Both the position numbers and the translations under genes were made by a program. The notes beneath the pieces are model-generated. The model made no database searches, was not told the origin of the DNA, and saw only the letters and a list, made by a program, of their open reading frames with translations. DNA of 64,000 nucleotides, taken from the NCBI GenBank assembly GCA_965178125.1, contig OZ237761.1, positions 372,001-436,000 of the forward strand, written 5' to 3'. This DNA comes from Bilabrum cf. latius. Taxonomy: Eukaryota. Positions within the stretch are counted from its first letter, which is position 1, and the number at the start of each line of letters is the position of its first letter. This document shows, one piece after another, positions 3,671 to 63,913 of the stretch.

Positions 3671-6600
3671 TCAGACGGTTTCTGCCATCGCGGCAGCACC
3701 TTTATCACTGCTTCCAGCGGTTGGGTGGGCGCTGGCTCCCACAGCGTCGCCTGCAGTGCGCGTCGCTGCGTCCTGGCCGGCACTGCCCTCCGAATCGCCT
3801 GCGGCAGTTGGAGCAGCGCCGCCTCCGAGCAGGGCACCGCCGCTGCCAGTGCGGTGAAGAGGGTTGGAGCGCTTGACCTCTCTCTCCGATGCTTGGTTCC
3901 ATTCGCGGTCGAGGATGGGTCCGGTGCTGCCCCTGCGGCCGGCTGCACCATCGAGCTTGCCGTTTGCACAGTGAGGCTCCTTCCCTGAGTCTTTGCCAAA
4001 CATGTCGTTCAGCTAGGCAAAACTCAGCTTCCTGTTGGAGCCATTGCCGCCTTTGCCAATCTCCTTCTGCTTCTTGCGCTTCTTGCGCTCCTCGCGCTCC
4101 TCCGCCAGAGCCTTCAGCTCTGTCGCTGCTGAGTCGAGCGTCTCGTCGTCGTCGTCCTGCACGAGCTTGCCCACGATCAGCGCAGTGTTCTTCGACTCGA
4201 CCCGCCGGCCGGCGAGCTGAAACGTCTTGAGGATGCCTACCACGGCTCCCAGGGCGCCGATCACCACTGCGGAGAAACCGCCGATCGCGCCCGGGGCCGC
4301 AAGCAGGCTGAATCGGCGGCGATACTCGGTGACGTGGATGGTGCCGGCCAGGTTAAGTCGCATGCACCAGGGCGCTTCGTCCAGGCACGGGCGGGCCTCG
4401 ATTTCGGTGTCGCGCGCCCGAGCGAGGAACGCAGTGCTAGTGCCTGCGTCGGCGTCCGTCACGAGCTACGCCTGCAGTGATGCGGCAAATACAGCCTCGA
4501 CACGTCCACCCTCACGAACCCTGGACGCAGGAAGCGCGCCCTCATCGACCTTCATACCCAGGCGCCCTCCGGGGCTCGCCTCTCCGACAGGGACGCGGAT
4601 CCAGCCGGTGCGGAGGGGCAGCGACACGAGGAACTGGGGTGGCAGAGCCGGAACGTCACCGATCCCGCGCTCTGCCTAGTTCTCGAACGCTAGCTGCACC
4701 TAGAGGCTGCTGATGGACCCCACGTCCCTCACAAATTCGTACAGGCCTTTTCGGATGGTTCCTCCGTAGTACAGCACGCGCGACTGGTCCGTAATCACGG
4801 TTGAGATGTCTGCCGAATAGTCAATGACATCACTGTCATCCATGATAGTGTGGTCCAGGGCAGCGAAGCCAGCCAAGGGAGCCATCGCAATCGCAGGTGC
4901 AGGTGATGGACCGACGACCAGCTGCGACCTCACTGGGTCAATCCTCAACGTGTTGTCGTCTCCTGAGCTGACGAAGGCCCAGCGCATCCCAGCGTCCTGG
5001 TACTCGTCCGGCACCATGGCGGAGACAGCGACTGACGGTGATGTAGAGGTGTCCCCACGAGAGGGAAGCACTGGTCGCACTGAGAGACCGTCTTCCTGAA
5101 TGTGCAGCCAAGCCTGGCTCGAAGGGGCGCCGTCCACCATCGCCGCCAAAATAGCATCTGCGTCTTCGGCCGGCATGGAATCCTGCACTCGTCGCTCACC
5201 TGCATCATCCATGGAGAGCCCAGGCACCGCTGCAGCCAGAAATCTCCTCGGCGACGTAAGGCTGAAGCCAGCATCGAATGCGCTATCCGACCTGCGCAGC
5301 ACAACGGCCGAAGCGCCCTCAATGCTGCTGGACCCATCCACAAGACGGGATAGGACGCTGCCTATGGCTCGAGCATCCATCACTTCTCCCACAACATGGG
5401 ACGCCATACTATCGTCAGGTACATAGTACGCAGTGGCTATCACAGCCGTTCCTGCGGGAGTGACGATCATCTCCGTCGTCTAAGTCCCCGCCGGGCCTGC
5501 TTCAATCCTTGCCTTGGCATCCGCAGGCAGATTGGGCACGTCAGCCAGGACCCAGTAGTACTGCAGCTCGTCCGACTGTGGGCTGTACACAGACACTAGC
5601 ACTTGTCCCAGTAGCACCCGCGTAGCATCGCCGACCACGCAGCCATCCGTCTCGGTCCCGCAATCAATCCCCGAAGTTCCGCACAGAGCCGCAGATGCAT
5701 TGCCGTGGACGGCAAGCATTACCACGATGTCGCCAGTCTCGTTGTTCACGGTAACGTTTGGGGTGCCCACCAGCGTGGGTATGGTGTAGTCATTGTCCAG
5801 CTTCGTGTTGACGAGCAGCTGCATGCCAGAGCAACCCGAGTCCGCGGCCTGCATGCGACCCGAAACGGCATCCATGAACGAGCTCTCGCTCGCTTGGACG
5901 TACTGCCAGTCTGCGCCGGCCTCCGACGAGAATGCCGTCAGTGTCTCTACACTGACCAAAGTGGCCTCCGGGTAGGACCATTCCTCGCCAAGGGCCTTTG
6001 GTCCCGACACGTATTCCTGCTGCACCACCGTGGCATGCACCACCAGGCCGCCGCGTCCCCTCCGATCTGGCGCCACCACGATGCTCGTGGCCTGCTCGGC
6101 GCACCCAGTGGTCGGGCCGCAGTCCCTCTCCCCGTAGGACCTGCCCTGGGCCACCATGACCACGCGGCCAAGCTTGGGGTCAAAAACGACATCCCTGCGG
6201 AAGCGAGTCACGGGACTGAGGCAGAATTCCCCACTACCGCCATCGTTCTGCGACCCGCAGTTGTCGAAAAGATCTGACTTAGTCCAGACGTTCATTGGGA
6301 CGCCGTCGCGGTTGATGTGCAGATTGTATTTTATTCCGATGGCCGCGAGGTTAGAAACAGCCCCGTGTATGGCTGGCCCTGAGATCCAGCCGTAATTGGA
6401 CATCGGCACCATGTCACCCACAGCCAGCCCGCCGGCGCTCGCCCCGAGAGCTGCCGTCGTGGCAAGGCGAATCCTCCCGCCAGACCGGATGGTATCGTCT
6501 ATATCAAAGAACTGAGATGAAGTCCACAGGTCACCTTCGAAGCCAACATACCGTGGGTTGTGAGGAGCATCGTCCACGTGCGGACTGTAGTCGACTATCA

Positions 6601-8512
6601 CCTGCATGCTGTCGAGCATGACCACCATGATGCGGTTCACAGGGATCGAAGTATACTCATTAGTGACCTTAATCTCTGCTTGCATGGCGATCGTCACCGG
6701 GCGTCCCTCTCTAGCTGCGTCCAGGTCATACACAAAATTGCTTGTGTGCTGCGTGTCGTTGCTGCGACCCTCCTTGATGGGCCACCCGTGGTTAGCCTCA
6801 GTGAGCGCGTTGGTGGTGCCGGGCTGCTGCCGGTGCCTGTTTGACTGCCAGTCGCACGTAAAAGCTCCGCTTTGTGCGTCTATGCGAACCAGCCGCAGCT
6901 CGTGCGCAGTCTCTCCCTCGTGTTCATACCTGCCATCGTATTCCACCAGCACCGCAGCTCCGGACTCGATCTCGCGCACCACGACCGATTGTACGTCCAT
7001 ACCAGCCTGCGTGAGCACGTTTTCGGGAGCAAGCCATGCCTCCCCCTGCTACACAAAGAGCCCTTGCTCGGTCGGGCGCACGTCGTACAGGACTCTCCCA
7101 GTGTTCAGGTTGGCTCGCACCATCCGCAGGGACTGCAAAGATTGCTCGATCAGGACAAGCTCGCTCGAGCCGAACGGACGTACTTCGGCCACATAACTGT
7201 CCTAGAAGTCATCAGAATTCTACTCATCGCTCCCTGGCAGCAGCTTGTAAGCCCCGTCTTGCAGTGCATACCACACTCCCGGCGAGCCTTCCCACACTGA
7301 GTCTGACTCCAAGGTGTCCAACCCTGGGATCATTCGGCTTGGGATGAGATCCGACCGCTTGGATCCTGTCGCAACGTCCAGCGTCACCCACCGCGGGCCA
7401 ACGCCGTCCATCACATGCGAATACATTTTAAGCACACCCCTGCTTGCCTGGAGGTTCACGATCGGACACCTGTCCAGTGCTGCGGCACCGTCTTGTGCGA
7501 AGGGAGCGTCTGCCACTGGAGAGTACTGCCAAACGATCTGGCCAGAAGCCGCGCTAACTGCAAAGGCCCTGCTCGCGTACGCACCCCCACTGCTGTAGTA
7601 ATCATCGCCAGCGTCTAGGTTTTGCAGCGACATGCACTCAACCGTGACATACAGCCGCTCTTTCCCAGTGCCTGCCGTCCCCTGCAGCACGCTCTAGCCA
7701 GTGCCGCTCAACTCAAGGCCGGACGGAATGACGAAGGCGTCTGGCCGAACGGTACTCGGGCCTCGGAGGAACGACTCGGCCGTCTCAAGGTTCCATACCG
7801 AAGGCAAGCCGTCCCGGATGTCTACCACCGTCTTGCTCTCATCTCGGATTTCAGCCGCAGTGAAGGCTGCTTCTAGCTCGATGCGGGCGATTTCCTGCGG
7901 AGGGGTCTACGACAGGTCCGCCAGCAGGAAGCGAGTCTGGTGGTCGTCTTCGTACAGCGCCCTGGTCAGGTCTGAAGAAACGTAATTTGGGCTGTAGCCC
8001 GCCGCGCCTAAGGGTCTCTGGATGGGTGATATCTCGAGGTACTCGTCGGACCCCCTGCACAGCGACACCGTCCCGAAATGTGACGAGGCGCCCAAGGCGT
8101 CGTCGCCGGGGCCCAGGGCGACCGCACCGCTGCTCTCTTCGGAGGCCGTCAGGTACTCTAGGAACATAATATCATCCGTGCTCTTGACCACGGACGAGTT
8201 GCGGTCGCTGCTCGACGAGGCTGGGAGCCAGTCGTTGGCGGCGATTGTCGCCGGGCCGAAGGCGCGCACGTAGTACCCCAGAGGCGAACGAGACAGCTGC
8301 AGGTCTTGGATCTGCTCGCACGTGCCAGGGTCTACATTCTGCTCGTTCTCCGTCGCGATGGCAGGCTCGGTGGTCTGTAGGACGAGCGTGATGGCGTACA
8401 CCAGCACAGCAATGACCCACGCAGCGGTGCTCACTACCCCTGCAACGGAGGCCGATCCGCTGTCAATTACTGTGTCCTGGAAGAAAAAATCAAGCCTGCG
8501 GGGATGAACCAT
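3671..8512 (-). CDS. ~1613-aa two-transmembrane protein with a very large ectodomain (TAG read as Gln)
   Basis: ORFs 8512-7907, 7690-7220, 7018-5480, 5470-4700, 4462-4013 and 4003-3671 share one frame and are separated only by TAG (about 10); ends in TGA. Hydrophobic segments near the N-terminus (GVVSTAAWVIAVLVYAITLVL) and C-terminus (FSLLAAPGAIGGFSAVVIGALGAVVGIL). Confidence 0.85.
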
Positions 8513-8829
8513 GAAAAAGCAGGGCAGAGACCGCCAAAAAGACGGTTGAAACGCTCGCTATTACATGATTATTCTTTGTGTTCCACGTTGCCAAGTTGCG
8601 CATCTCACCACAAAGATCCTCGCAAAAAGCTGAAAGCTTTTCCGATCATGCTATCGCTACCGTCTGGTCGTGAAGAACTCGCCATGGTCTCTGACCAATC
8701 GCCACCTGTCCGTCAGAGGAGGCCAACAACAAATCATCGTGTCAAATCGTATTTCATTTATCGCACGCAACTTACATAAAAGGAACGTTCCCGGTTGTGC
8801 TTCGCTGGCTAGCAGCACTGCAGTCTGCA

Positions 8830-9390: not shown

Positions 9391-9920
9391 GGGTGATGCA
9401 GGCGTTTTGTTTCGTCTTTGGACGGCAAGCAAGAGCGTAAAGCCATATCCTTGTGCATCCTCCTCAGCCTTGGGCTCATCAGTCCGTCCTTGGGGTCTCC
9501 CCCAATTTGTCCACCTCTACGGACCAGCCACAAGGGTCGGCCATGCTGACAAAGACATTCCGGAGTCCGGAGACAAGGTTCTATATCTGGTTTGTTCGTC
9601 TCGATTGCCAGCCGCATGCTGACTCTCTCGAACAAACCCAGATGAATCAGTGGCATGGCATCGAGCTATGTTCACAAGCTATCGAGTGCTGTGCCGGGCT
9701 GGCCCATGCCGCACTATGGCTCGCACAAACCTGGTGTCGCGCCATCCTGGAATGGGTGGGCATCGACCGCGGCGGCCGTTTCAGTTTGTGGCGTGGGGTT
9801 TCACACGAACGTCGGGCCACCGCATCCGGCATTAAGTTGCCAAGTGGACCAGTCCAGCAAACGCGTCTGCAGCAAGGTATAGTCTCAAGCAGCGGAAGGG
9901 ATTCGATTCAGCTTTGAACG

Positions 9921-12647
9921 ATGTCGACAATCTCTTTGATGGTGGCTGCCTCAGCAGCTGCTGTAGCGGCCGACCTGACCTACTACGACGTTGCCGGCTC
10001 ACCCGGTCTGCAGGGTACCGCGTTTTCTAGCTCTTCTAAAGTGTCTCCGTTCGACCGGTTCCCTAAATCAGCGCAAGGCGTGGTCTCGGAATCGGTGTGG
10101 TCGCTAAGCAGGGATTCGGCTGGGCTCTTCTTTATGTTCGAGACTAACTCAACGTCGTTCGCGACTAACATTACGTACTTGTATAGTGATACTGAGATGT
10201 GGCACTTTCCATCCACGGGCGTCGCCGGCATGGACCTGTACCGGTGAGTCTGCAAGATAGCAAGATCGCGTGGCACGGTTGGAGCGCAAGCCTTTTTGCG
10301 TTCGATCTAAAGTCCCACAGAGCATTGGCACACATAACTGTTGCATGCGCTATGTGTTCAGTTTTGGTTGATGTCATCCACGATGTTTGGTGAACCACCT
10401 GAACGACGCACCGTTCTTCGTTTGCATCGCAGCTACGATGCCGAGAAAGCCTCGTACCGCTGGGTAGGAACGTCCCGGAACAATATCTACCCGCACAGCA
10501 CAAATGTACTCATTGATGGCTTGCCCACGACGCTCGGCCAGTACGTACTCTTCCTGCCGACGTACAACGCGCCTGTGCAGCTGCACGTCGGCGTCGACAC
10601 GGGCTCTGCGTTCCACCCGACCGACCTGAGCGCGCTGCCAGAGGCAAGCAAGCCGCCTTCCGTGTATCACTACGGCACTTCCATCCAGCAGGGAGCTGTG
10701 GCTTCCAGGCCGGGCATGGCGCACCTGAACCTCTACGCGAAGAACCTTGGCGTGATCGTGTACAACTTCGGCTTCTCCGGGCATGGCCTCATGGAGCTCT
10801 CTGTCGCGGAGCAGCTCGTGCATGGTGACCCGGTCCCCGACGCCGTGGTCATCGACTGCCTCCCGAACATGACCCCGCAGCAAGTCAGCGACCGGACGAT
10901 CCCTCTCGTGCACTACCTGCGCGCCAACCTGACCAACGGTGCCACGGTGCCCATCGTGCTGTCAGAGGGGACTACATACGGGCAGTACTGGCTGGGTAAC
11001 GGCACCGAGATCCACGACGTGCAGTCGGAGAAGCGGGCGGCCCTCCTTGCCCGTTTCGAGGAGCTCTCCCGGACGGACTCGAACCTCTACTACCAGCGCG
11101 GAGACGACCTCTTCTCTTCTGCTTTGCTCCAGGTATCCCCCACTGTGGGGGGCACGCACCCCACGGACGCGGGGATGACCTCCATGGCCGCGGGCTGGGA
11201 AGACACGCTGCGGCCTATCCTCGGCATGGAGTCAGGGAACAAGCCAGGGAACAAGAGGTCCCTGAAGGACACCCTGCTGGGCAAACCGGTGGACCACCCC
11301 AACCGAGTGGCCGCGCGCGCCACGGCGCATCCCGTGGCAGCTGGCTCGTCCTACAGCGAGTCCACGGATCCGGCCGCGATCGTGCCTGCTGGGTACGCGA
11401 CGCGTGCTACCTATGACCGGGCGAGGGAGTCTCACTCGGCGATTCTGCGGGACACCGTTGGCTCCACCGACCTCGACGTGGTGCAGGGGAAGTTGGCCCG
11501 GGCGAGCGCTCGCTCTCCCGACGGTCTCAAAGAATCGGTGGCCGCTGACGCCAAGTACGTCCCCATGATCTCTCTGACAATGTCTGGCCGCGGATTTGTC
11601 GGCACGTCCGGATCGGGCGCGCCACCCACTCCCTTCAACCGCCTGCCCGCCGATGCAGCCGGCGTGGTACCCGCCGAGGTGGAGTCCCTTAGTAACATGT
11701 CCACCGGGGTGAGGATCGGCTTTTAGACGAACTCCACGTCTATCGCTGTGGACTACACCCTCGGGCTGCCCGCCGAGCCCCTGTGGCACATGCCCGTGTC
11801 TGGAACGGCGGGCATGGACCTGTACCGGTGGGACCCGCTCATGGAGCTGTGGCGCTTCGTGTCGTGCGTCACCAGCTTCCCGCGCGCGGGCGACAACCAG
11901 GTCAAGCAGACCATCGCCGTGGGTCTCCCCCAGCAGCCCGACGGCTCCCTCAGCCGCTACCTGCTGCACATGCCTCTCAGGAACTTCCCGCTCGGAGACG
12001 CGGCGCTCGGCGTGGACCAGGATGCAGCGGTTGAGCCGGACCAGGCCTTCCCTCCGCTATCCAAAGGGGGTGCCATCGTATGGTGGGGCACCTCGATCGA
12101 CCAGGGGGGCGTGGCAGCGAGGCCAGGCGACACCTACACGAACATAATCGCGAGGAGGACAGGCAGGGATGTTATCAACCTGGGCTTCGCGGGCAACGGC
12201 AAGATGCAGCCTTCCGTGGTGCCGTTTATTGCCGCTGCCGTGAAGGAGCCGGGTCTCATCGGCATCGACTGCAACCCTAACCTTGGGCCGAGCGCCGTCG
12301 CGAACCTGACCGTGCCAGCGGTGCGCTCGATGCGGGCTCACAACCAGCAGGACACGCCCATCGTGCTAGCAGAAGGCACCACGTACGGCGACACCTGGAT
12401 CGGTGGTGAGACCCAGTTCCAGAAGCGCGCCGCGCTACGCAGCGCCTACGAGCAGCTGGTGGCCGCAGGCGACGACAAGCTGCACTACGTGTTCGGAGAC
12501 AACCTCTTTGCCACGCATGCTGGCGACTTCCGCGCCGCTACCTTCACCAATCCGACTGTGGGCGGGACGCACCCGAGCTCGCTCGGGCACCGCGAGGTGG
12601 GGTATTACTACATGAACGTGCTGCCCGGCTGGTGCAGGGATGCCTGA
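9921..12647 (+). CDS. Secreted tandem SGNH/GDSL hydrolase, 2 x (GxDLY N-terminal domain + GDSL_3-type catalytic domain), ~845 aa
   Basis: Signal-peptide-like N-terminus; two copies each of GMDLYR, (Y/W)GTSI, N(F/L)GF(S/A)G(H/N)G, DC(L/N)PN and TVGGTHP. Intron 10244-10432 (gtgagt...cgcag) restores DLYRYD. One in-frame TAG at 11724; TGA stop. Confidence 0.9.
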
Positions 12648-13054
12648 GCGTGGAGGTGTGGTGGCTACAAAGCCGCATGTAGCCTGTCAGTTTGCTTTCT
12701 AGTTCCTTGACCAGAACACGATTCTTGTCGCGGATTAGTTGTAGTTGTTTCGCGTAGAAAATCGGCCGGAACTGAAGAATATTGTTCGCTCAAGCAACGC
12801 TCGCCCGAGCGACGAGCGGCCGCAGAGCAGCAAGCTCGCGGCTCGGTAGCGGGGCGTGGCAGGAGCGTTTCGATTCCAAACCATTCAGAAAAATACCGCA
12901 AAGCAATCGGAAGAGCCAGCCGCCCCGCACCTAGGGCGCGACGATGCTCCAGCCAGCGCTGGTGGCCTGCATGCATCGCGCGCGCAGCTAGTGGCGGACA
13001 GCAGCCAGCTCCGCACCGCTCTGAGGAAACCAAGTCGCTCCCCAAACAGAACGC

Positions 13055-14658
13055 TCAGAAGTCCTTGCCCTCAAAGATGGTGTTGACCATCACCTGGGCT
13101 GCCTCGGGCTGATCCCGGGGAACCATGTGGCCTGCGTTAAACACCCGCAGGAAGGTCAGGCCCTGGTAGGTGCGCGCCTCGCCGTAGGCCTGCTTGGCGC
13201 CCTCTGGCTGCCACTTGTGGGGCGTCTGCGCGTTGAACTGATCGTGACCCTCCCACTTGAGAGCCAGGGTCCAGGCCTGCACGCCCAGCCAGTTCACGAT
13301 GAAGTCCATGTCGCCGGCGTACACGACCACGCGCACGCCGCTGGAGAGGAGCGCAGGCACCTTCCACTGCTGGTCCTTCATCCAGTCGCTCGAGAACCCG
13401 GCGTTGACCTGGTAGTTGCAGCTCTCCCACTTGCGGTTCACGCCGAGGTCAGATTGCACCGAGGCGGCGTTCAGGAAGTCCGTGGCGTACGAAAAGTCGT
13501 AGCACAGGGGGGGCACCTGGCACTTGATGCGGATGTCGTAGGGGTTGTAGCCGGACTCTTCATAGGGCCCGAACAGGGCGTTGTTGCAGTACTCCTGGGC
13601 GTCGGAGCACTCTCCCGTGTTGCTCTGGCACTCCTGGATGAGCTGGTTGCACCTGGGCTGGGCTGCGTTCATCTGCTCGTACTGCTAGAGGCTGACCCTG
13701 GGCTCGCCCACGGCCTTGATGCTGTAGTTGTAGGCCAGCTCCTGGTAGTACCCGTCGTACTGTGCCACCGGGTCCGTAAGACCGTTGCCGATGCCGATGC
13801 CAGCGAGGCTAATGTTGGTCTTGCCGGCCACGTTGCTCTCATGGATGGCGTAGGCGAAGGAAGGCACGTAATGGCCGGCGTACGACTCGCCGAAAATGTA
13901 CAGGGGCCTGCCCTGGTATTCGGTGTGGTCGTCCAGGAACTGCACGATGAATCGGAGCAGGTCAGCGGCCACCTGCGTCTCGTTGTGGTCCCAGCCCGCG
14001 GGCGAGTCGGAGTGGCTGAAGCCGGATCCCACGGGGTTGTCGATCCAGATGAATGCGCTCTCCTCGTTCCAGCTGTAGGGGTTCTTGGTGGTGGTCCTGC
14101 CGTCCTTGTTGAAGGTGCATGGGCCATTCTCAGTGCCCAAAGCGAGCATGCTGCGAAGAAATAAAAGGGGTTTGGTGCAGAAGGTGCCATAGCCGGCAGC
14201 GAATGAATGTGGTGGGAGAGACAGGCCACCAGCCTCACGAGGAGCATCCGGGTCCACCCTGCGGTAGCATTTGGAATCGGGAACCAAAGAGGAGGATTTA
14301 TCGGACGAATAAAGCATAGTCATCTATCCGTGCGCGGGCAAGACTTGTCTCACGGTGAGCCAGACAGACAGGGGACCAGTCGCGGAATTTTGGCGCGCTG
14401 GAAACCACCAGGCGAACATCTCCTTATCGAAGGACTCGCCGGGCGCGTCCACGTCATAGTAAACGGCGTAGCTCTCTTGGTCACCGCACAGCGTTGCTGC
14501 AAGGGATTGGGAAGAATTGTGAGCTGATTGCTGCGGTTGTGTGTGGTGAACATTGTTCGATCACTAGGCAGGCATAATATCTCACGAGGAACTGCCTTTT
14601 CCTTTGCGAGCGATAGACCAATTGCAAGTGAAGCAATGGTGGCGATAGCGGTCTTCAT
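13055..14658 (-). CDS. Serine carboxypeptidase, peptidase S10 family, ~443 aa
   Basis: Exons 14658-14586, 14496-14354, 14258-14239 and 14150-13055 give a signal peptide, WLTGGPGCSS, ENGP, IDNPVGSGFS, GESYAG (Ser), AGDMDF (Asp) and AGHMVP (His). One in-frame TAG at 13685-13687 lies between the catalytic Ser and Asp/His; TGA stop. Confidence 0.95.
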
Positions 14659-14889
14659 GGTAGGGTTTAAAGCCAGGATGTGGCGCCCAAGGTACTTCAG
14701 GTTCGAAATCCGAGTTATTTAAATGTTGCGCGTACTTGGGGTAGAAGTTGCAGTTTTGGCAGTTGTCCCCCTGTATGCCCTGCGCAATCAGTATTCCAGC
14801 TAAAAGTGTACATATTCGCATTGTTTATTATACGTTCTAGCTTTTCGTTGGATACATTTACCTGAAGTAATTTGAAGCAGGCAAGTACC
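14659..14889. promoter_or_regulatory. Short AT-richer divergent intergenic region (putative bidirectional promoter)
   Basis: Lies between the head-to-head ATGs of the carboxypeptidase and LRR genes; visibly lower GC than the coding DNA. Confidence 0.45.
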
Positions 14890-17412: not shown

Positions 17413-17626
17413 GAAATTGTCAGGATTTCCGAGGAAAGGGGGGGTAAGGGGACTGGGCGCTGGCTCCACAGATCGGCACATGGCTGCTTGAACAACAACA
17501 CTAACAATAATTCTTGCCGAGCAGTCACAATTTACACCCATCTCGATGCGACGCACACCAATACCAGCATCACAGTTCCAAGCATTGCATCTGAGTGCCA
17601 AGCCTGGTGCACGAAGCAAGTCAACT

Positions 17627-47166: not shown

Positions 47167-47227
47167 AATAGTTGAATTCGGGTTGTAGTCATGCTTCGTG
47201 GTCTGTATACGCCCAAGGTGCGAGCTA

Positions 47228-51459: not shown

Positions 51460-51651
51460 AACCACATCACATATTTCACGAAGCATGGTCGCTCGTCACA
51501 CCTCGTCCACGGACCCAAATCGAACTAGCCGACGTTTTGACACAAATCACGACAGATTATAGTTAAACTTGTGTAAAGACTGAGCCATACGTTGATTAGC
51601 TGATTCGCCTGTCCAAATCTATATTCGCTACACCTAGATTGCCGCATTGTG

Positions 51652-54600: not shown

Positions 54601-55527
54601 GCGACTTCGCTGGACTCCGCCCTGAGCAGAGGCAGGGAGTCATCTATGATGAGTGCGTCCGATGAGCCCGCACCTGACAGCAGCAAAGGCCATTCGCTGG
54701 AAGACTGCTCAAGGTAGCAGTTTAGCTTGGAAGAAGAGACACGTCTGCACAGCAGAAGCACGCCACACCCCTCGACCATAGCGCCAAGTGCACCAGCACT
54801 ACCTGGCTTGCATACCAGAGGTGCCATGGTGCCCGATGCCACAGTCGCAGCCCGCATCCGACTCGTGCACCCCTCAGACTGGAAGAGGTCCCGGCTGGGC
54901 CGTGGCCTGCTACGTGGGTCTGCGGCGGGTGTGAGATCTCCGTTATCTGCAGGAGCGGGAAGTCCTTCCGCTACTGGTGGTTCTGCTGCGAGTGGTGGAT
55001 CCTTGCCTAGAGGTGGGACATCGGAATCCATGGTCTCTCTGTCAACAGATGACGGTGAGGTGTATAGGGGATCAAGCGAGGGCCCAGCCAAGGGCGGGCT
55101 GAGGCAAGGGCATGTCCAGGAGATGGTGGAGGTGCGGCGACGGTTCCGTGGCTTGCTGTCCAGACTGCAGGGTTAGAGTCAGGGGCAGGATTAGAGGCGC
55201 GATGTCAGCCGAGGCCAATTGCACCGTCCATAGCATGGCTCCAGCTGTGTGCATGTGCACCGCAAAGGACCAGGCATATCTGGTGCATCGAGCCTTGAGG
55301 GTGCAGGCGCTTAGCAGGCCGGTCACTCGAGACGAGGCGACATAGATGGTGCTTTCCCAGGGAATGTGCTTGCTTCCAGTGGCTGGCCCATCCTTCGGTC
55401 CACCCCTGACGAGAGGCATGTCGTGCTGCGGGTGGGGCTGGGCAACACGGTGGTGGCTGAGGTGTACCTGATGGCGAGGAGGCACGAAGGGGGCGCGGTT
55501 GTGTCGCTGACTCTGATGTCGAACTGA
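51652..55527 (+). CDS. 6-TM receptor-like protein, tandem paralogue 4 (~1291 aa)
   Basis: Single frame with about 15 TAGs; TGA stop. Confidence 0.85.
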
Positions 55528-55897
55528 AATCAAAACAATGATGTCTGAATAATTGCTTTGGCTATCAATTCCGAGAATGGGATGCCAGTGGGCGGCGCGG
55601 CCATGTGGTGCGACAGCCCACTCTTGGCTCCCAGCAGGGCGACCGTCCCGTTCTGTCGCGGTTGACTTGATTCGGATGTAATCAATCGGGTCGCGTTTCC
55701 GTGAGCCGCGACTCGATGAAGCCCACTGCGACCATGCCACAGTTTGCCAGTGGTTCAATATCACAAAACCGGAACAGGCATCCTTGTAATCTTCCTTCTG
55801 GATCCTCAGCCAAGCAAAAAGTGCCTAGATCGTCCTTTTCGTTCAGAATAATATTTTTCGCACTTACTTGCAGCGCCTGGTCTCACCTGCGATTGCT

Positions 55898-58800
55898 ATG
55901 CAAGCAAGTACAATGCTGTGCAGACGCTGGCAGCTGCAGTTTGCTCCACCTGCCTCGTACTTGATAATGCTAGAGCAGCTTGTACTGGAGCATTTGTACA
56001 CGTTTCAGAATAAATGGATCCAACCTGGTTCGCAGGAGCTGCCGTCATTGAGTAGATTCGAAATTGTTGGAGCCAGCCGGTGTGGATCCTGCATGCCTCC
56101 TTACGCGGGCTCTCGCGGAGAATGCCTAGGACCCTCGATTTACCCCATGCAAGCAGAGCAAGTCTTCCATCTATTCAATTTGGAATCTGCCGGGAGCATT
56201 AGGCGGACGTTGTACGTCCTGGCTGTGCTAACCACGTCGTATTACTGGCTCGATTCCGCAGTATTCGACGTCAGAGACCCAATCTATCCCGAGTTAACAC
56301 CAGGAACAAGCTCATATATGTGGGCGATTGTTGCAAGAACTATTGCTGTACTGGCGATGGTCGTGTGTCTTGTGCTTTACGTGCAGCGGTTCGCTCTTGT
56401 GCCTAGGACACTACATGCGATTGAACTATCCATGTGGTTGGTCGCATCGGCTGGGTAGCATCTTCGAGCAGCGATCGCCAAAGACCCCGTCGAGTTCAAC
56501 AAATTTCTGACGGGCTGGGGCACTCTGTCCAAGCTGGTTGTAGCGACCTTCTCCGGGCTGAGTTTCGAGCTGTCCCTCACCTACTCTGTACTCGACGCTG
56601 CGGCGCAAAACATAGTGCAATACTATTTCGACCCGCAGAACAGGCGGTTTGCCGCCCTGCAGCTCAGTATCGTTAACACTGCTGTTGCAATCGCCGCATC
56701 GTACGTGCTCTCTCTGCTGGCCAGGGAGATGTTCCTGCTGCGGCTGCGGCTGTATGTGCAACAGCTGAGAGGCACCAATGCTGCGATCGCGCAGCACGGG
56801 CTGCTGGATGCAGCTCCAGCCGCAATGGCACTGGTCAAGCCCGGTTATGCAACGGTACGCTCTTCTCCGGCCTCGGGTGCCGATGGGGAGTCTAATCAAG
56901 CAGGGCTGCGAGTCGACCTGCACAGCCCACCGTCGGTCTCAATGATGACGCAGGGCGCAAACAGGGTGCTCGATCATATTGAAGCTCAGTTTCACAAGCA
57001 CGGACTGCATTTCATTTCGCTAAGGAGTGGGAAAAGGCGGCTGGGCAGCAGTAGAGACGGTGTTGCTAGCTCGCAAGCCCCCATGCTCGAGCACACGGGC
57101 AAGGACCTCATCAGGATGCTCGGCGTGTGCAAGCAGGACAGACCGCTGGCCTACTGGGCGCTGTTCTGCGCGCCCGATCGGCAGGACGATGACTTGCTGA
57201 CGGCGAGCCACGAGGCTTCAAAATCATTAGCCTCGCACTCGATTCACCTGATCCAGCGCCTAAAGCATAGCGCAGGCTTGTCAACCAGCATGCAGACGCA
57301 TCATGAGTAGCCTGTACAGCCCAATATTGACCACGGCACCAACGATTCGCATGGAAACAGCTCTGGCCTGCACAAACTGGCTGGCATCCTGGCTGGGTCC
57401 AGCAGCAGCGACACGGGCCATGCCGGCTCCTCGGACTCGCGCAGCCGCGGACATACGCTGCATGCGGCGGAGGACACTAGTAGCGGTCCATAGCTAGCAG
57501 GGCACCCTGCTGAAGAGATCAGCAGACTTTTCCGCGAAGCGCGGGATGCACCGAGTACTCGAGACGCCTTCCCAGGTGAGGCCCACGGCGTGCGACAAAT
57601 GACCTCAATTACAGCAACAACAACCAGGAAGAGAGGGCACGCTGGCCGGGCATCTTCGTCGACGATTCCAACCAGCGATCCAGCAGCAGTCCCCGTATCT
57701 GTGGTAGATTGGTCAAGCGACCCCAAAGAATCCAAATCGCCGAGACAGAACGCTTCCAGTGTGCCCGCTGCATCGCGGTCTGATGGTGCACTGCGGACCG
57801 GTAGAGTGAGCCAGCGGAGCCTTTAGTCATGGTGCTGCCTCTGGCGTCAGTAGGATTGCTGCTGTGGGACGGCAGAACCAAGCAAAGGTAGCAGCAGCTG
57901 CTTCTGCTGTCCGTGCGTGGAACAAAGCGATGTTGTGGTGGAGGAGCTCGCAGCTAAGATGTCAGCTCTATTCGTCATGAGCCGGGCAGCGGCAGGAGTC
58001 GGCGCTACACTCGAGCTTGAGCCACTCGATCAAGTTAGGGCGGCGGTGGAGCCGTGGTCTCACGCAAACTCCCTATTGCATGCAACTCGCCCTATCCAAT
58101 TAAACCGAGCATCAGTCGGCACGTCGGAGACATACAGCTTCAACTCGAGCCCAAGCCAGCGGCCAGCTCCACTGCCTGCCCTGCGTCGCTATGGAGACCG
58201 TCTCGCTCGCCGCGATCAGGCAATCACGCGGTAGCACCTACCCGGAGTCCCTAGTGCAGCACTTACGGACCAGTAGGAAGTAACAGCGCGAGATGGGATG
58301 AGGAAGAGGCCGTTTTCATCGCCAAGTGGTGAGGCCACAAGAGGCTCGTCAAGCCGGTCATCATCTGTGATTGGGTCTGCAGGGCACTCAGGCCTGCTAG
58401 CGGTGGCAGGCGGCAACTAGCTTGTTGCAAGCGGATCAAATCCAGCAGACTTTACGTCGTTGTCTACTGTAAACAAACAGTCGGGAGATGGCATGGAATC
58501 AGCGGGAGTGAGCAGCATTGGACTCGTTCGCCGAGGGCTCTCTACTCGCCCGGGCACCTTTGAAACTGGACAGTTGCGAGATAGCATCGAGATGCAGCCA
58601 GTGAAGACTTCTTCAAATCGTGATCATAGCCACGATCAAGCAGAGCAGGTAGAGTATGAGCCTTAGCGTGTCGGGCAAGCAGCCCCACGTGCTAGCGGGG
58701 TACCGCGATTGGGTGACCGTGACATGGAATCGCAAGAAAACGCTGGTGCAGCCCAAAGTAGCCGGGAAGAAAACGATCAAGATTCCCCGCTGGATGTCGA

Positions 58801-59650
58801 CACCACCGAAGCAGCATCGGTTGACTCAGCAGAAGTGGTAATTGATACCTCAACACATCCTGTGTAGCTCGCGAGCGCCGGCAAATCGAGCCGGACCTCA
58901 CAATCCATGGGTCCCCAAAGGCCAGATGCCAGGGAACAGCGAGAAAGGGCGCACTCAAGACTAGCTCCTGCTGCCTCAGTTGCTTCCAGAATGCGCCTTG
59001 TACACTCTCCTGGCTGGATCAACGCCGCTCTAGGCAGGGGTCTCCTATCTCCTGCTGTGCCAGTCGGATCTTCAGGGCAACGTGGACCTGCATCCACACG
59101 AAGACGCCATCCGAGTCCAGTTCCACTTAGGCTAGGGAAGGGGCAATCTGTGTCGATTCATCAAAGGCAGCGTTTGGCGGATTCACTCGACAGCTACGAG
59201 TCAAGCGACAGCGACGGTATTGATGCCACCGCAGTTTCGAGGACGCCTGCCCTTTAGCACGGTGCGGGCGACGACACTGAAATTGAAATGGGCAGGAACA
59301 CGGTGGAGGTGGTCGAGGTCAGGAGGTAGTTTCGGGGGTTGGTGTCTCAGCTGCATCCCGCTGGCGCGAGTGCCAGTGTGCTGGAGGACGCGGGCGCAAG
59401 TGTGCCTGGTGCCAGCGGTGAGTCAATTACTCGTTCGAACTTAAGAGGTGGTATAGACGACGAGCTGCAGGGCTCTGCGATGATGGGTGGCCTGGTACAT
59501 CCCAAATTTGGCTGGCCCATCCTTCGGTCCACCCCTGACGAGAGGCATGTCGTGCTGCGGGTGGGGCTGGGCAACACGGTGGTGGCTGAGGTGTACCTGA
59601 TGGCGAGGAGGCACGAAGGTGGGGTGGTGACTTCCTTGGCAGTTATTTAA
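55898..59650 (+). CDS. 6-TM receptor-like protein, tandem paralogue 5 (~1250 aa)
   Basis: Single frame with about 12 TAGs; ends in TAA close to where its paralogues end in TGA. Confidence 0.83.
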
Positions 59651-60118
59651 GCAAATAGTTTCGCTATTTGTATCGCGCAACCATGACCTTGACGAAAACG
59701 GTCTAAATTCAGATTTTGATTGTACAGTGCAAAAAGCTCGAGAACTCCGGCCATTTGGCATATCTTCGCTGGTAGTGGCTGAGGTAAGCTATTCCTACAA
59801 CACTGGTCATACCGCACTTGGTATTTGTGCGCTATATCTGAAGTGAGGTAGGGCGATTTGCCTCGCGAGTCGATTGATCAACTCTTCATCTTATTTGACC
59901 AGTTGGCGCTTGGGTGTTGGTCCTGTGCAGACCCAATTTGAAACTTCAGATGCAGTACATCCATGAGCCAGTTGTTTAAATATTCTATGTAATACCGTAC
60001 ACCACCCATGAAGCGATGGTAGAATCGTTGATTGCTTGGATATAGCAATCCTACTTTTGAGCCGCATTGAATCTGCAATTTTTTGCTGCAAAGCAATTTA
60101 TTTCGTAGAGTGACAAGC

Positions 60119-63100
60119 ATGGCTCAGCCATCAAAAGGAAGATCCTCGTTGGCCGGATCAGCTGGTTCCACTGAGGAGCTCGAAGCCAAACTACCCCTGA
60201 TCCTGTAGCGAGCGAGATGCAGTCACGATGCCTCACAAGTCAAGAGATACATGAATGGCGTCGACGTTTCGTACCATGCCGTCCGAGATCCAGCTGTGGA
60301 TGGGCCAGCGCCAGATGCTGAACTGAGAGCAGCGCCAGGTACCGATGCTGGACCCGCACCGCTACCACTGCTGGAGCCAGGGCCAGACCTGCCTCCGGGC
60401 TCTCATGTGTTTTGGGTCTCCATCTCGCTGCGGAGGCTCGGCATCGGCGGTGAATCTGCAGCAGCTCTCGGCCTCGAAGAAGACCTGCCCTGGGTCTGTT
60501 TCCGCATGGTGCTCGATCGCCGGTACGAAGGAGCCCTGCACGAGGCCAAGGACCACGAGGAGGACGAGGAGGAGGGTGGCAGCAGTGGCAGTAGATCTAG
60601 CCACAGTGGTGCCGCCAGTGGTGCCGGTGCCGGCGCGGCCACTGCTGCTGGCGCTGGGTCAGGATCCGGTGGACTGCGAATCGTCAGCAAGGAGCACTTT
60701 TACCAGAGCGAGGTGCCCCACATGGGACCCGAGCCGCCTAAGATCCAGCGCAGCGACGGCAGGGATGTGGATGAGATGGACGCGGCGGATGCAACAGCGA
60801 CTGGAGCCGGCGATGGTAGTGGTGCTGGCAGGGATGTGTTTGCTCGGTGCGTACCATTTGGGCTGACCGGTCTCCTTTACGACCGACTCAGCCGGTGGTT
60901 CTTCGGTGGAAAGCTACGGGGTTACATGCAGGGGGCAGCGTTGCGCGAGAGCGGCTTCGGCGGTACGGCTGGTGGAGATGAAGAAGCGCAACACGACACG
61001 CCTAACTGGATCGACCTTGCGTTCACGGTACAGCAGCCCGAGGTTGAGGAAGAGAAGCCGCCACCGCCTGTCGCGGCGGCGGCAGCAGCAGCAAGCCCGG
61101 CGCGAGACATCGACTACGACGTGGTGTCCTATCTGGGATCATCGGACGCAAACATGCCCGGTGGTGTATTTTCGGACACCATGTGGCCCGTGCGCCTGCA
61201 CAGCCAGCATGGCGATGTGGTGCACCTGCAGCTTGCACTGCAGAAGCAGCTGGAGTCCAAAGCAGCCAGGGTGGGCTTCTCCTACGCCTCAATCGAGCGG
61301 GACCACGCAATTATGATGGCCGGCGCTTTCGCGGAGGAGACTGAGACTGATCCTGGCGGCACTGCGGGAGCTGGGCTGGCTGTGGCTACGGACCGAATGA
61401 GTGCATCCGCATCTGCAGTCCCTGCCAAAGCGGAGCCCACGCCAGACGCAGGCGAAACGGGTGACGAGCTCATTGGCCTTGATGAGGCCCAGGGGCTGAA
61501 GACTAGGCAGCTGTCGGAGCAGTACGGCAAGTCAAAACTCAGCCTCGTAAACGCCAGGCAGATTTTAGCTTTGCACGGATGGAGCGTGGAAGCAGCGCAA
61601 ACGACATTGTCGAATGATCTAACGGTGAGAGATTTAGCTGCGGCCGGTGAATTGCCCTCCGAGCTCTCGTCATGGAGCTCGTCATCCGGTGGCACTTCTG
61701 GCTCGAGCAAGCCCGGTGCTGCCGCTTCAGGATAGTCATTGCATCCACTGGCGGACCAGTCACCAAAGGTACAGCGGCTGTGCCGCACGTACGCGATACC
61801 TCCTTCTGATGCGTTGTTTGCACTTGAGAACGCTGGGACCGAGGAGGCAGCCAGCGCGTTCTTGTCCAACAAATCGCTTGCTTCTGCCAGCGGCATCAGG
61901 TTTGGAGAGGGGCCTGTCGGCCCAGGCGACTGGATCCCCGCCGATGACATTGCCGGTGCTCCAGCGGGAGGGGCTGCACCTGCTGCCTCCAGCGGGACAG
62001 GCACTTGGGGCGCTGCCCACGGCGGCTCAGGGTCTAGTGCGACCGCATTTAGCCGCGGCAGCTGCGCTCGTAGCTTGGGCGGGATCGTGATACCTGAGTG
62101 CAAAACCATGGGACAGAAGAAGGAGTTTCTGCAGCTTCGGTTTGGGCTGTCCGAAGACGATGCGCTAGAGGTTGTCTCCTGCGCTGGGTATGATATCCAT
62201 GTTGCGGTGAAACTACTAGGGGATAAAGACGCCATGGAAACAATGGGCGTTACGGTTCCAGACTCCATGCGAATCAAGTCTCCAGAAGAGCTGGCACAGG
62301 TGGATGCAGGCGAGAAGGTGCTTGAGCGGCTGACTCCCTTCGAGCATGATGCACTGGAATGGCTATGGGTTAGATGCACGCAGAAAATACCCGCGGCTGT
62401 GATCACCCGATGGGCCTTCATAGCTGCCTACTCTCAGTTGGGCGGCGAGAGACTCTACGAGCTCATTAGCAACGACCAGGTCATCAACATCCTGGACGCG
62501 TCCACCGCCGCACAGTCCTCTGCAGCTGCAAGTGCTGCCGGTGGGGCAGGATCCAAGGAGGAAGGGGTGCCAACAGCAGATAAGGCAAACGCAGCCAAGC
62601 TAGCCGCTGTCCTCGCCGAGTAGTAGACGGAGCCATTCCTGACGACGTGGAACCCGCTCGCCAGCGTCTCTCTATTCTCGCTTCGGCTGCTTCGCAATGC
62701 GAACAGGTGCTGCCTCAGCTGTGGGGTCCTTCTCCGTGTGAATGGTATGCGCCCTACTATGTGCGGTCGTTCGCAGTGTGCGCATCGGCACGCTTCGCTC
62801 TGGCTTGGCAACGCGCTCCACAGCTTTGTGATGCGTCATCCACGGGTGATGGACTTGCTGATATCATTCTTCTATACCTTCGTACATTCCTGCCCAAGGG
62901 TGCGAATGCCACTGCGGTGGCCGCACGGCTTGTCCAATAGGGGCCGGATGGGCGTGACGGCCGCCACGGAGGTCACCATCGGACCCGAGCCAAATGATGC
63001 AGACCTGGAAAAGCTCAAGAAGGCAATCGCAGCATGTCCCAGCGTGGACTCGATGCAACGGACGGGCAGGAGGGGCGGGACCGATGCACTCGAAGCAAGG

Positions 63101-63913
63101 CTGGACCGGATCAACACGCTGATCGTGCCGATCTTGCGGTCCCTGCTGGCCGAGACGCCGTCCTTCATTCACTGCATGAACGATGGCAGGGCGCCGAATC
63201 CGCTGAAAGGCACCAATGAGCACTGGTGCTTTGTGTTTCGCCAGGGCAATGCTGACAGGGAGGCGATCTTTCAGAACGATCGCCCTTCGAGGCCAAGCTT
63301 CTGGGCATGGCACGGATCGAGCTTCTTCAACTGGTGGGGCATTCTCAAGGGCGGCTTGCGGAACTTCAGCGGGACAAAGCTCATGTCTGCCGGTGCTGCA
63401 CTCGGTGCCGGCATATACTTCTCCGAGAACTGGTCCACCTCGACAGGCTATTCGCAGCCCGGGACTACCTGGCCCAAGACAGCACTCAAGCACTCGCCCG
63501 CCAAATTCCAGGAGCTGCGTCAGGCAGTCACGAAGCGAGCGCGTGAGCTCAAGGCAGCAGCCAGCGGTCCTCTTGGCCCAACGGATCTGGACAGGATCGA
63601 GCAGCAGGCCGAGGACGAAGTGATACCATCGGGAGGGGCCGATGTGCCTGTGTTTGCAGCGGCCATGTGCGAGCTACTGAGCAAGAAGGATGGGGACGGC
63701 AAGGGCTGCTACCAAAAGGGTGGTAACGCCGGTTAGGGGCATGGCGGCCACGTCCACGTGCTGCAGAAAGAGGACTGGTGCATGACTCGGTTCCTCATTG
63801 CGGGCGCGAGCAGCACCCGTGGTAGCCTCACCCTGGATCCAAAGACGGACAAGGAATTGCTTGGTCGGGTGACGAGTGGCATGGTGACGCGCGTGCACAA
63901 GACGATCGACTGA
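60119..63913 (+). CDS. PARP6/PARP8-like mono-ADP-ribosyltransferase with UBA-like repeats, ~1264 aa
   Basis: CLSCG...RPTMCGRSQC Cys motif; catalytic WHGSSFFNWWGILKGGL...GAALGAGIYFS...GYS; terminal strand HVHVLQKEDWCMTRFLI lies beyond TAG 63734. Five TAGs including TAG TAG at 62621-62626; TGA stop. Confidence 0.88.

What the first reader, a model, noticed from the sequence alone, without database searches (positions are those of the whole stretch)
3671..63913. Non-standard nuclear genetic code: TAG is a sense codon, most likely glutamine
Seen: 14 of 15 genes contain in-frame TAG (about 110 by hand count), the frame is preserved on both sides, and I found no in-frame TAA or TGA in the gaps I read. 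The paralogue array identifies the residue internally: SAG*HLR (56456) vs SLGQHIR; VE*HVLEH (47587) vs FEQYVLEH; HAL*SE (51760) vs HVLQSE; EAL*QA (39770) vs DGLQEA; RLQG*SQGQ (55174) vs RLQGQGQGQ; R*HLPG (58232) vs TQHIPG; RR*FRG (59327) vs KQQFRG. Myosin FA*RF (25892) matches the familiar FxQRY motif. Established: TAG=Gln alone corresponds to translation table 15 and is rare in nuclear genomes; I know it from the fornicate Iotanema and some ciliates. Inference: this GC-rich, intron-poor genome does not look like a ciliate (its style suggests a heterotrophic flagellate such as a stramenopile, low confidence), so this may be an undescribed independent reassignment.
Basis: partly seen in the sequence, partly recalled or inferred. 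Interest (0 to 1): 0.96.

Follow-up and report, generated by a model that had tools for sequence, protein, structure and literature searches.

The report
TAG read as glutamine, nuclear genes
This GC-rich protist DNA uses the usual stop codon TAG as an ordinary amino-acid codon, most likely glutamine, while TGA and TAA still end genes: a rare genetic-code variant seen here in a lineage that does not look like the few known to have it.

Summary
Reading TAG as sense raises the longest open frame from 800 to 3513 codons and opens nine frames of 1274 codons or more. Reading TAA as sense gains nothing.

- **Codon counts:** 14 well-supported ORFs (17,201 codons) hold 116 in-frame TAG, 0 TAA and 0 TGA. 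Thirteen end in TGA and one in TAA.
- **Kept in transcripts:** spliced, gene-sized contigs from three further runs of two other studies match the DNA without a difference over 26 in-frame TAGs. This excludes consensus-level editing and assembly error.
- **Glutamine is the best reading:**
  - A 99%-identical carboxypeptidase fragment and an 89%-identical myosin fragment from a close relative carry Q at window TAGs.
  - A metagenome relative (L001) has TAG where the window has CAG, inside a fully conserved block.
  - A likelihood calibrated on the paralogues ranks Q first.
- **Distribution:** L001 also needs in-frame TAGs, whereas its sister pair on the myosin tree does not.

The variant (UAG=Gln, UAA/UGA=stop) is known from Iotanema and some ciliates. 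This organism looks like neither, but it was not placed. tRNA-Gln(CUA) and eRF1 could not be examined.

The parts
3671..8560 (-). ORF of 1629 codons with no Pfam family; 10 in-frame TAG after the first ATG; ends in TGA
9844..12737 (+). Transcript of a two-domain GDSL/SGNH esterase-like gene. Intron at 10243-10431. One in-frame TAG at 11724-11726. Stop is TGA at 12645-12647, followed by a 90-nt 3' UTR.
12755..14658 (-). Serine carboxypeptidase (S10) gene. Three introns: 14497-14585, 14259-14353 and 14151-14238. A 20-nt micro-exon at 14239-14258. In-frame TAG at 13685-13687. The TAG at 14324-14326 is intronic. Stop is TGA, followed by a 300-nt 3' UTR.
14813..17499 (+). Transcript of a leucine-rich-repeat-like protein of 840 aa; 7 in-frame TAG; TGA stop; 87-nt 3' UTR
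17517..28473 (-). Myosin heavy-chain gene of 3478 codons in the spliced model. Intron at 28037-28154. 17 in-frame TAG, four of them inside the motor domain. TGA stop, followed by a 110-nt 3' UTR.
28556..32380 (+). ORF of 1274 codons with no Pfam family; 5 in-frame TAG after the first ATG; TGA stop
33346..34680 (+). HORMA-domain protein ORF; 1 in-frame TAG after the first ATG; TGA stop
35648..37567 (+). ORF with a weak EF-hand match; 5 in-frame TAG; TGA stop
38426..59650 (+). Five tandem paralogues (38426-42793, 42973-47166, 47455-51459, 51604-55527, 55790-59650) with no Pfam family. They hold 14, 6, 17, 15 and 12 in-frame TAG. Four end in TGA. The fifth ends in TAA (59648-59650), two residues before the homologous end of the others.
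60071..63913 (+). ORF of 1280 codons with a PARP catalytic domain; 5 in-frame TAG; TGA stop

Best explanation
The window is nuclear DNA of a GC-rich, intron-poor eukaryote whose cytoplasmic translation reads UAG as an amino acid, most probably glutamine. UGA (mainly) and UAA still terminate. This is the code of NCBI table 15.

Shown:
- TAG sits in frame in every supported gene, at about 6.7 per 1000 codons.
- It is kept in spliced transcripts.
- It aligns with Gln in near-identical orthologues and in conserved paralogue columns.
- TAA and TGA are absent in frame.

Inferred, not seen: a dedicated tRNA-Gln with anticodon CUA, which pairs with UAG but not UAA, probably derived from tRNA-Gln(CUG). 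Also inferred is an eRF1 that no longer recognises UAG efficiently, as proposed for Iotanema (PMC5304391, section 9).

The trait is shared with at least one environmental relative (L001). It is absent from the sister pair on the myosin tree, so it arose within this lineage.
For: **Open frames.** Frames of up to 3513 codons open only when TAG is read as sense; TAA as sense gains nothing.

**Codon counts.** In 17,201 codons there are 116 in-frame TAG against 0 TAA and 0 TGA. The other two frames hold 49 and 65 TAA and 273 and 354 TGA. Stops are TGA in 13 of 14 ORFs and TAA in 1 of 14.

**Homology runs across TAGs.**
- The Myosin_head match (E 3.5e-181) covers residues 219-786, across the TAGs at 309, 360, 630 and 759.
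- The Peptidase_S10 match (E 5.8e-93) and the GxDLY match each span one TAG.

**Transcripts.**
- Contigs of runs X5, X6 and X7 (two studies other than that of the DNA run X1) are gene-sized.
- They lack three or more GT..AG introns that X1 retains.
- The only difference from the window in 20 kb is 29504 A>G, in one X7 contig of depth 2.9.
- 26 in-frame TAGs lie inside listed X5 pieces that show 0 other letters (see the full report for a frame slip at the S10 gene).

**Meaning of TAG.**
- P0124 (99% identical over 364 aa) has Q at the S10 TAG.
- P0246 (89%) has Q at myosin TAG 2503 and ends just before window CAG 2551.
- One L001 TAG faces window CAG 27713-27715 in a block that is identical on both sides.
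- Paralogue columns opposite TAG read Q in 4 of 4, 4 of 4 and 3 of 4 copies at three conserved sites. CAG is the commonest codon opposite TAG (21 of 205 aligned cells).
- In the paralogue-calibrated likelihood, Q is first at every flank filter of 3 or more. With 5 or more of 12 flank residues identical, Q scores -78.3 against -106.9 for K, the next best.

**TAA is not Gln.** With CAA/CAG = 0.34, about 39.5 in-frame TAA would be expected if TAA were Gln with the same bias; none is seen.

**Clade.** L001 (myosin 64% identical) needs 4 in-frame TAGs, one at the same site as window TAG 360.
Against: **Variable columns.** Many TAGs lie in variable columns where homologues do not show Q.
- Myosin 309 faces E in 94 of 120 hits, and in 8 of 16 closest orthologues (Q in 5 of 16).
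- The S10 TAG column reads A 28, S 19, Q 12, E 11 of 120.
- The GDSL TAG faces T and R in two solved structures.
- The LRR TAGs 23 and 568 face A and K in fragments 83% and 78% identical.
- Two L001 TAGs face R and C, and window TAG 309 faces H in L001.
- P0244 ends before a window GAG.

**Unfiltered likelihood.** Without a flank filter, the paralogue likelihood puts S first, driven by low-complexity regions.

**Missing direct evidence.**
- No tRNA gene lies in the window, and no genome is held. The tRNA and eRF1 parts are therefore inference.
- No protein-level evidence exists.
- The RNA nature of X5-X7 is the tool's guess ('RNA?', and for X5 'probably DNA'). I rely on the spliced joints.
- Contigs drop rare variants, so partial editing cannot be excluded.

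**TAA as a stop rests on one gene.** Reading through that TAA would add only 11 codons.
Confidence: 0.88

Rival explanations
1. Both TAA and TAG are glutamine codons (table 6, as in many ciliates, hexamitins, some green algae and an aphelid). On this view TAA is simply rare because the genome is GC-rich.
For: TAA is the rarest of the three triplets in the window (218 and 209 on the two strands). Only one gene ends in TAA, and reading through it would add just 11 codons.
Against: There is no in-frame TAA in 17,201 codons, although the other two frames hold 49 and 65. About 39.5 would be expected from the CAA/CAG ratio of 0.34. Reading TAA and TAG both as sense lengthens four of the nine long frames by 24 to about 106 codons and leaves the rest unchanged. 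The TAA of the fifth paralogue lies two residues from the homologous TGA ends of the other four.
Confidence: 0.03
2. TAG is a sense codon but encodes another amino acid. Candidates are Glu or Lys (one base from GAG or AAG) or Ser (as reported for Scotinosphaera).
For: Myosin TAG 309 sits in an E-dominated column. One relative's fragment ends opposite a window GAG. K and A face two LRR TAGs. S ranks first in the unfiltered paralogue likelihood.
Against: In the most similar comparisons (99% and 89% identical fragments, and a fully conserved block against L001) the partner is Q or CAG each time. With flank filters Q beats every other residue: at 5 or more identical flank residues K is -106.9, E is -119.3 and Q is -78.3, and S drops out of the top six. 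Three conserved paralogue columns read Q in 11 of 12 cells.
Confidence: 0.06
3. TAG has a dual meaning: sense inside genes and stop near some 3' ends, as in Condylostoma, karyorelicts and Blastocrithidia for other codons.
For: A terminating TAG cannot be recognised from ORFs alone. The LRR-like gene has a TAG two codons before its TGA (17404-17406).
Against: In the four genes with modelled RNA-defined ends, the TGA is followed by 87-300 nt of 3' UTR. By recall, not a call, that is unlike the very short UTRs of organisms with ambiguous codes. Fourteen of 14 ORFs reach a TGA or TAA.
Confidence: 0.05
4. The TAGs are not translated as such: sequencing or assembly error, RNA editing of UAG to CAG, pseudogenes, or unrecognised introns.
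For: Two ORF-level TAGs did turn out to be intronic.
Against: The DNA contig of X1 and contigs of three runs from two other studies agree with the window at every covered TAG. 26 TAGs lie in spliced transcript contigs. 116 TAGs in 14 genes, with zero TAA or TGA and intact domain matches, do not fit pseudogenes. A relative shares the pattern.
Confidence: 0.01

Closest known systems
Iotanema spirale (Fornicata) nuclear code: UAG=Gln, UAA and UGA stop (PMC5304391; abstract and sections 7 and 9 read)
   Same: The same three assignments. UAG is frequent in frame and was never seen as a terminator. The mechanism proposed there, tRNA-Gln(CUA) plus an altered eRF1, is the one inferred here.
   Different: Iotanema ends genes mostly in UAA (104 of 119 scrutinised transcripts); here TGA ends 13 of 14. 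Iotanema is a metamonad, a group reported to have lost all myosins in the two genomes sampled (PMC3942036, one passage); this window encodes a myosin. Here genomic DNA, introns and a relative with the same trait are available.
UAG-only=Gln in ciliates: Protocruzia tuzeti and two phyllopharyngean lineages (PMC11687900; two Discussion passages read)
   Same: The same codon table (NCBI table 15 type).
   Different: The window is 57-65% GC. It is one stretch of at least 64 kb carrying many long genes with GT..AG introns. By recall, not a call, ciliate macronuclear genomes are AT-rich, and gene-sized chromosomes are recalled for phyllopharyngeans.
UAR=Gln codes (table 6: many ciliates, hexamitin diplomonads, Ulvophyceae, Streblomastix, Amoeboaphelidium; listed in PMC11687900)
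   Same: A stop-to-glutamine reassignment of UAG.
   Different: TAA is not used in frame here (0 of 17,201 codons against about 39.5 expected), and it ends one gene.
Other UAG-only reassignments: rhizarian exLh (Leu), Scotinosphaera (Ser), ciliate PL0344 (UAG=Glu, UAA=Lys) (PMC5304391; PMC11687900 passages)
   Same: UAG is decoupled from UAA.
   Different: The residue differs. Leu, Ser and Glu all rank below Gln in the filtered likelihood and in the near-identical orthologue comparisons.

Membership tests
UAG=Gln, UAA/UGA=stop nuclear code (NCBI table 15 type) | In-frame UAG inside conserved coding sequence, with the frame and homology kept on both sides | tested here: met
   116 in-frame TAG in 14 ORFs. 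The Pfam Myosin_head, Peptidase_S10 and GxDLY matches span TAGs. The alignment to L001 runs across TAGs.
UAG=Gln, UAA/UGA=stop nuclear code (NCBI table 15 type) | UAG is present in mature mRNA, neither edited nor spliced out | tested here: met
   26 TAGs lie in spliced contigs of X5 with no difference from the DNA. X6 and X7 agree where they cover. These are contigs, not raw reads, so minor editing is not excluded.
UAG=Gln, UAA/UGA=stop nuclear code (NCBI table 15 type) | Positions opposite UAG are glutamine in homologues | tested here: met
   Q in two near-identical orthologue fragments. CAG opposite a relative's TAG in a conserved block. Q is first in the filtered likelihood. Many variable columns are uninformative or show other residues. 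The sample is one 64-kb window.
UAG=Gln, UAA/UGA=stop nuclear code (NCBI table 15 type) | UAA is not a sense codon and is used as a terminator | tested here: met
   0 in-frame TAA against about 39.5 expected, and 49 and 65 in the other frames. One gene ends in TAA at the homologous end. The terminator use rests on that one gene.
UAG=Gln, UAA/UGA=stop nuclear code (NCBI table 15 type) | UGA is a terminator | tested here: met
   13 of 14 ORFs end in TGA, with 0 in frame against 273 and 354 out of frame. RNA contigs end 87-300 nt after the TGA in four genes.
UAG=Gln, UAA/UGA=stop nuclear code (NCBI table 15 type) | UAG is never used as a terminator | tested here: inconclusive
   No gene needs a TAG stop, but a terminating TAG cannot be recognised from ORFs alone.
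UAG=Gln, UAA/UGA=stop nuclear code (NCBI table 15 type) | A tRNA with anticodon CUA and glutamine identity | not testable with these tools
   No tRNA gene in the window, and no genome is held.
UAG=Gln, UAA/UGA=stop nuclear code (NCBI table 15 type) | eRF1 N-domain changes that weaken UAG recognition | not testable with these tools
   eRF1 is not in the window, and no genome is held.
UAR=Gln code (NCBI table 6) | Both UAA and UAG occur in frame at Gln positions | tested here: not met
   0 in-frame TAA in 17,201 codons.

The most novel reading that the evidence does not exclude
This is an independent origin of the decoupled UAG-to-Gln reassignment in a eukaryotic lineage outside ciliates and metamonads, possibly a stramenopile or other SAR member. 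The clade has at least two members: the window organism and environmental L001. On the myosin tree it is bracketed by a standard-code sister pair. The organism already has genome and transcriptome data. It would therefore be the first case in which the tRNA, eRF1 and Gln-tRNA synthetase changes behind a UAG-only reassignment can be read from a genome and compared with close standard-code relatives.
Probability: 0.5. Interest if true: 0.8.

Novelty: new member of a known kind. Interest (0 to 1): 0.7.

Why it matters
Nuclear stop-codon reassignments are rare, and changes of UAG without UAA are rarer still. A 2024 paper lists Iotanema, Protocruzia and two phyllopharyngean lineages for UAG=Gln (PMC11687900, passages).

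A further lineage with genomic DNA, transcripts, a relative that shares the trait and a sister group that lacks it would be useful in several ways:
- It would show again that UAG and UAA can be separated.
- It would give a tractable case for finding the tRNA-Gln(CUA) and the eRF1 changes.
- It bears directly on annotation. Under the standard code every long gene here is cut into pieces, as the database fragments P0124 and P0244-P0251 show.

Tried and rejected
- **Whole genome:** none is held, so no genome-wide tally, tRNA scan or eRF1 search was possible.
- **ARAGORN:** no tRNA in the window.
- **Rfam:** no match.
- **The look-up of sequencing runs:** no RNA holder is listed by record. The kinds of X5-X7 are guesses. 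Parts of the 20-kb stretch have no listed RNA piece (25800-27048), so two myosin TAGs were not checked.
- **ESM Atlas:** The paralogue family therefore stays without outside homologues.
- **Distant homologues of the S10 TAG column:** variable, uninformative.
- **GDSL against solved structures:** T and R opposite TAG, uninformative.
- **Representative search with the LRR-like protein:**
  - Two close fragments show A and K at TAGs.
  - A conserved C-terminal module has a variable column at TAG 758 (A 6, R 5, Q 4 and others).
  - TAG 517 faces S 29, T 27, K 15, Q 14 in repeat alignments.
- **Placement by nearest names:** the S10 neighbours carry labels from Entosiphon, Apiculatamorpha, diplonemids, Cafeteria, choanoflagellates and oomycetes, so they give no placement.
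- **TSA prefix GECG:** a search for the prefix of one neighbour found no paper.
- **Literature:** five searches for a described non-ciliate case found none beyond Iotanema, the rhizarian exLh and Scotinosphaera. Subscription journals and supplements were not searchable.
- **Considered and rejected:** pyrrolysine or programmed readthrough. 6.7 TAG per 1000 codons in every gene is far too frequent.

Full report

The window is 57-65% GC throughout. The longest stop-to-stop frames depend on the code as follows:
- Standard code: 800 codons.
- TAG as sense: nine frames of 1274-3513 codons.
- TAA as sense: no change (800).
- TGA as sense: 816.

I kept 14 ORFs that are supported by Pfam domains, by paralogy or by RNA-like contigs, and trimmed them to the first ATG or to the supported exon. 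They hold 17,201 codons:
- In frame: 116 TAG, 0 TAA, 0 TGA.
- In the other two frames of the same DNA: 143 and 152 TAG, 49 and 65 TAA, 273 and 354 TGA.

So TAG is not avoided in frame, whereas TAA and TGA are avoided completely. Thirteen ORFs end in TGA and one in TAA.

The zero counts follow partly from how the ORFs were defined, but two results argue that they are real. The ORFs fill the transcript contigs (section 2). Reading TAA and TAG both as sense lengthens four of the nine long frames (1629 to 1735, 1455 to 1479, and two of the 1286-1397 aa frames to 1380 and 1389 aa) and leaves the rest, including the 3513, unchanged.

Pfam matches run across TAGs:
- Myosin_head, E 3.5e-181, residues 219-786, with TAGs at 309, 360, 630 and 759.
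- Peptidase_S10, E 5.8e-93.
- Lipase_GDSL_3 and GxDLY.

**2. Are the TAGs in the mRNA?**

One search for sequencing runs gave four runs of one sample that hold the stretch completely (X1-X4), and three runs of two other studies (X5-X7) whose kind the tool only guesses ('RNA?'). I laid X1, X5, X6 and X7 on 10000-29999.

- **X1** covers the stretch in one contig with no difference. It may be the source of the window.
- **X5-X7** give gene-sized contigs whose ends fall between genes. They skip 10243-10431, 14497-14585 and 28037-28154, each bounded by GT..AG on the coding strand, and X1 does not skip them. I therefore read them as spliced transcripts.
- **Differences.** The only difference from the window in any run is 29504 A>G, in one X7 contig of depth 2.9.

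Gene models built from these pieces:
- GDSL-type esterase: 845 codons.
- S10 carboxypeptidase: 443 codons, three introns and a 20-nt micro-exon.
- LRR-like protein: 840 codons.
- Myosin: 3478 codons.

All four end in TGA, with 87-300 nt of 3' UTR.

Twenty-six in-frame TAGs lie inside listed X5 pieces that show 0 other letters. In that script the S10 exon was read in a wrong frame. Its true in-frame TAG is 13685-13687, and it lies in the same piece.

Two ORF-level TAGs proved to be intronic: 28142-28144 and 14324-14326.

Because these are contigs, not reads, low-level editing cannot be excluded.

**3. Which amino acid?**

*Close relative.* The protein database holds standard-code fragments from a relative whose 10-kb contig carries both the carboxypeptidase and the myosin tail.
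- P0124 is 99% identical over 364 aa and has Q at the S10 TAG.
- P0246 (89%) has Q at myosin TAG 2503 and ends just before window CAG 2551.
- P0247, P0248 and P0245 end exactly before window TAGs 1501, 1712 and 2884. This fits conserved TAGs, though I could not see their DNA.
- P0244 ends before a window GAG.

*Environmental relative.* A metagenome scan with the myosin head returned two loci.
- L001 (2210 nt, 56.7% GC, 64% identical) is open only if four TAGs are read as sense.
- In the alignment these four face window R, C, Q (CAG, inside a block identical on both sides) and a TAG at the same site as window TAG 360. Window TAG 309 faces H.

*Paralogues.* In the alignment of the five tandem paralogues:
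- CAG is the commonest codon opposite TAG (21 of 205 aligned cells).
- Three conserved sites read Q in 4 of 4, 4 of 4 and 3 of 4 copies.

I then calibrated a likelihood on the substitution pattern of each amino acid in this same alignment.
- Q ranks first whenever at least 3 of 12 flanking residues are identical.
- At 5 or more identical flank residues: Q -78.3, K -106.9, H -113.8, E -119.3.
- Without any filter S is first, because serine-rich low-complexity segments dominate.

*Against or neutral.* Many TAGs lie in variable columns.
- Myosin 309 faces E in 94 of 120 hits, and E 8, Q 5 of the 16 closest.
- Myosin 759 faces Q 49 and H 25 of 120, but Q in only 2 of the 16 closest.
- The S10 column reads A 28, S 19, Q 12, E 11.
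- The GDSL TAG faces T and R.
- The LRR TAGs face A and K in fragments 83% and 78% identical.

This scatter resembles what was reported for Iotanema. There only 23-41% of moderately to highly conserved columns opposite UAG were Gln-dominated, about the same as for ordinary Gln codons (PMC5304391, section 7).

I put glutamine at about 0.9 given that TAG is sense.

**4. TAA and TGA**

The CAA/CAG ratio is 0.34. If TAA were a glutamine codon with the same bias, about 39.5 in-frame TAA would be expected; none is found. The fifth paralogue ends in TAA two residues before the homologous TGA ends of the other four, although reading through would add only 11 codons. TGA ends 13 of 14 ORFs and is followed by ordinary 3' UTRs. 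Whether TAG ever terminates cannot be told from this window.

**5. Who has it?**

A FastTree of 46 myosin heads gave these SH-like supports. The rows were 17 named and 26 unnamed hits that I picked from the 120 listed, plus the window, L001 and L002.
- Window with L001: 0.999.
- L002 with P0022 as their sister pair: 1.0.
- The four together: 0.994.

L002 (77% GC) carries a 2786-codon myosin ORF with no in-frame TAG that ends in TAG. P0022 is a 2390-aa standard-code prediction. If these myosins are orthologues, the reassignment arose after the split from that sister pair.

The organism itself is not placed.
- The only named member of the wider myosin clade is the ochrophyte Chrysophaeum (38% identity; the node has support 0.755).
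- The nearest named carboxypeptidases are scattered across eukaryotes.
- A myosin gene argues weakly against a metamonad such as Iotanema, because metamonads were reported to have lost all myosins in the two genomes sampled (PMC3942036, one passage).
- High GC, a contiguous stretch of at least 64 kb and GT..AG introns do not fit what I recall of ciliate macronuclear genomes.

**6. Mechanism**

Shown: the codon usage, its retention in transcripts and the Gln correspondence.

Inferred from established knowledge, as set out in PMC5304391 section 9: a tRNA that reads UAG but not UAA must carry anticodon CUA, most simply derived from tRNA-Gln(CUG). Efficient reassignment usually goes with eRF1 changes in the N-domain. 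Neither gene is in the window, and no genome is held.

**7. Comparison and novelty**

The code equals that of Iotanema and of Protocruzia and two phyllopharyngean lineages (PMC11687900, two Discussion passages). It differs from Iotanema in the preferred terminator: TGA here, UAA there.

Five full-text searches found no description of such a code in a GC-rich non-ciliate other than the cases above. That library lacks most subscription journals, and supplements were closed.

I rate it a new member of a known kind. It is interesting to specialists for three reasons:
- It is probably a further independent origin.
- It comes with genomic DNA and transcripts.
- A related lineage shares it and a sister pair lacks it.

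Papers seen:
- PMC5304391: abstract, outline, sections 7 and 9, and one 'find'.
- PMC11687900: two passages and the start of its abstract in the search listing.
- PMC12152300: one reference-list passage.
- PMC3942036: one passage.
- All others: search listings only.

Noticed in passing
window 38426-59650 (+): Five tandem paralogues of 1286-1455 codons with no Pfam family. They share a conserved hydrophobic N-terminal third and a nearly identical C-terminal stretch of about 45-48 residues. Long identical blocks shared by some pairs suggest gene conversion. The middle parts are fast-evolving and serine-rich.
   Followed up: partly
window 14239-14258 (-): A 20-nt micro-exon in the S10 carboxypeptidase gene encodes the conserved GGPGCSS motif. 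It lies between introns of 95 and 88 nt. All five introns seen are short (88-189 nt) with GTGAG-type 5' ends.
   Followed up: yes
L001:35-2210 (+): A 2.2-kb metagenome contig encodes the orthologous myosin head (64% identical) with four in-frame TAGs, one at the same site as window TAG 27089-27091. The code variant is therefore present in an environmental relative.
   Followed up: yes
L002:1507-9867 (+): A 77% GC metagenome contig carries the sister-group myosin: 2786 codons, no in-frame TAG, and TAG as its stop. This is a standard-code neighbour of the reassigned lineage.
   Followed up: partly
window 10338-12647 and 13055-14150: TAG is scarcest in the two genes with the highest third-position GC (0.81-0.82): 1 TAG in 758 codons and 1 in 364. 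Most other genes have 4-13 per 1000 codons, with GC3 of 0.59-0.72. TAG may be a disfavoured codon in strongly biased genes.
   Followed up: no
window 29038-31659 (-), 13025-14164 (+) and others: Long antisense or overlapping open frames (up to 873 codons with TAG as sense) lie opposite real genes. This is expected in GC-rich DNA and is not evidence of genes.
   Followed up: no
window 944-1864 (-): A 306-codon frame without any TAG that looks protein-like. It has no Pfam search or RNA check.
   Followed up: no
window 26720-26751 and 27403-27439: Contigs of X5 and X6 match only about 30 nt of the conserved myosin motor region and then run on unlike the window. They are probably other myosin genes or other organisms in those runs.
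   Followed up: no
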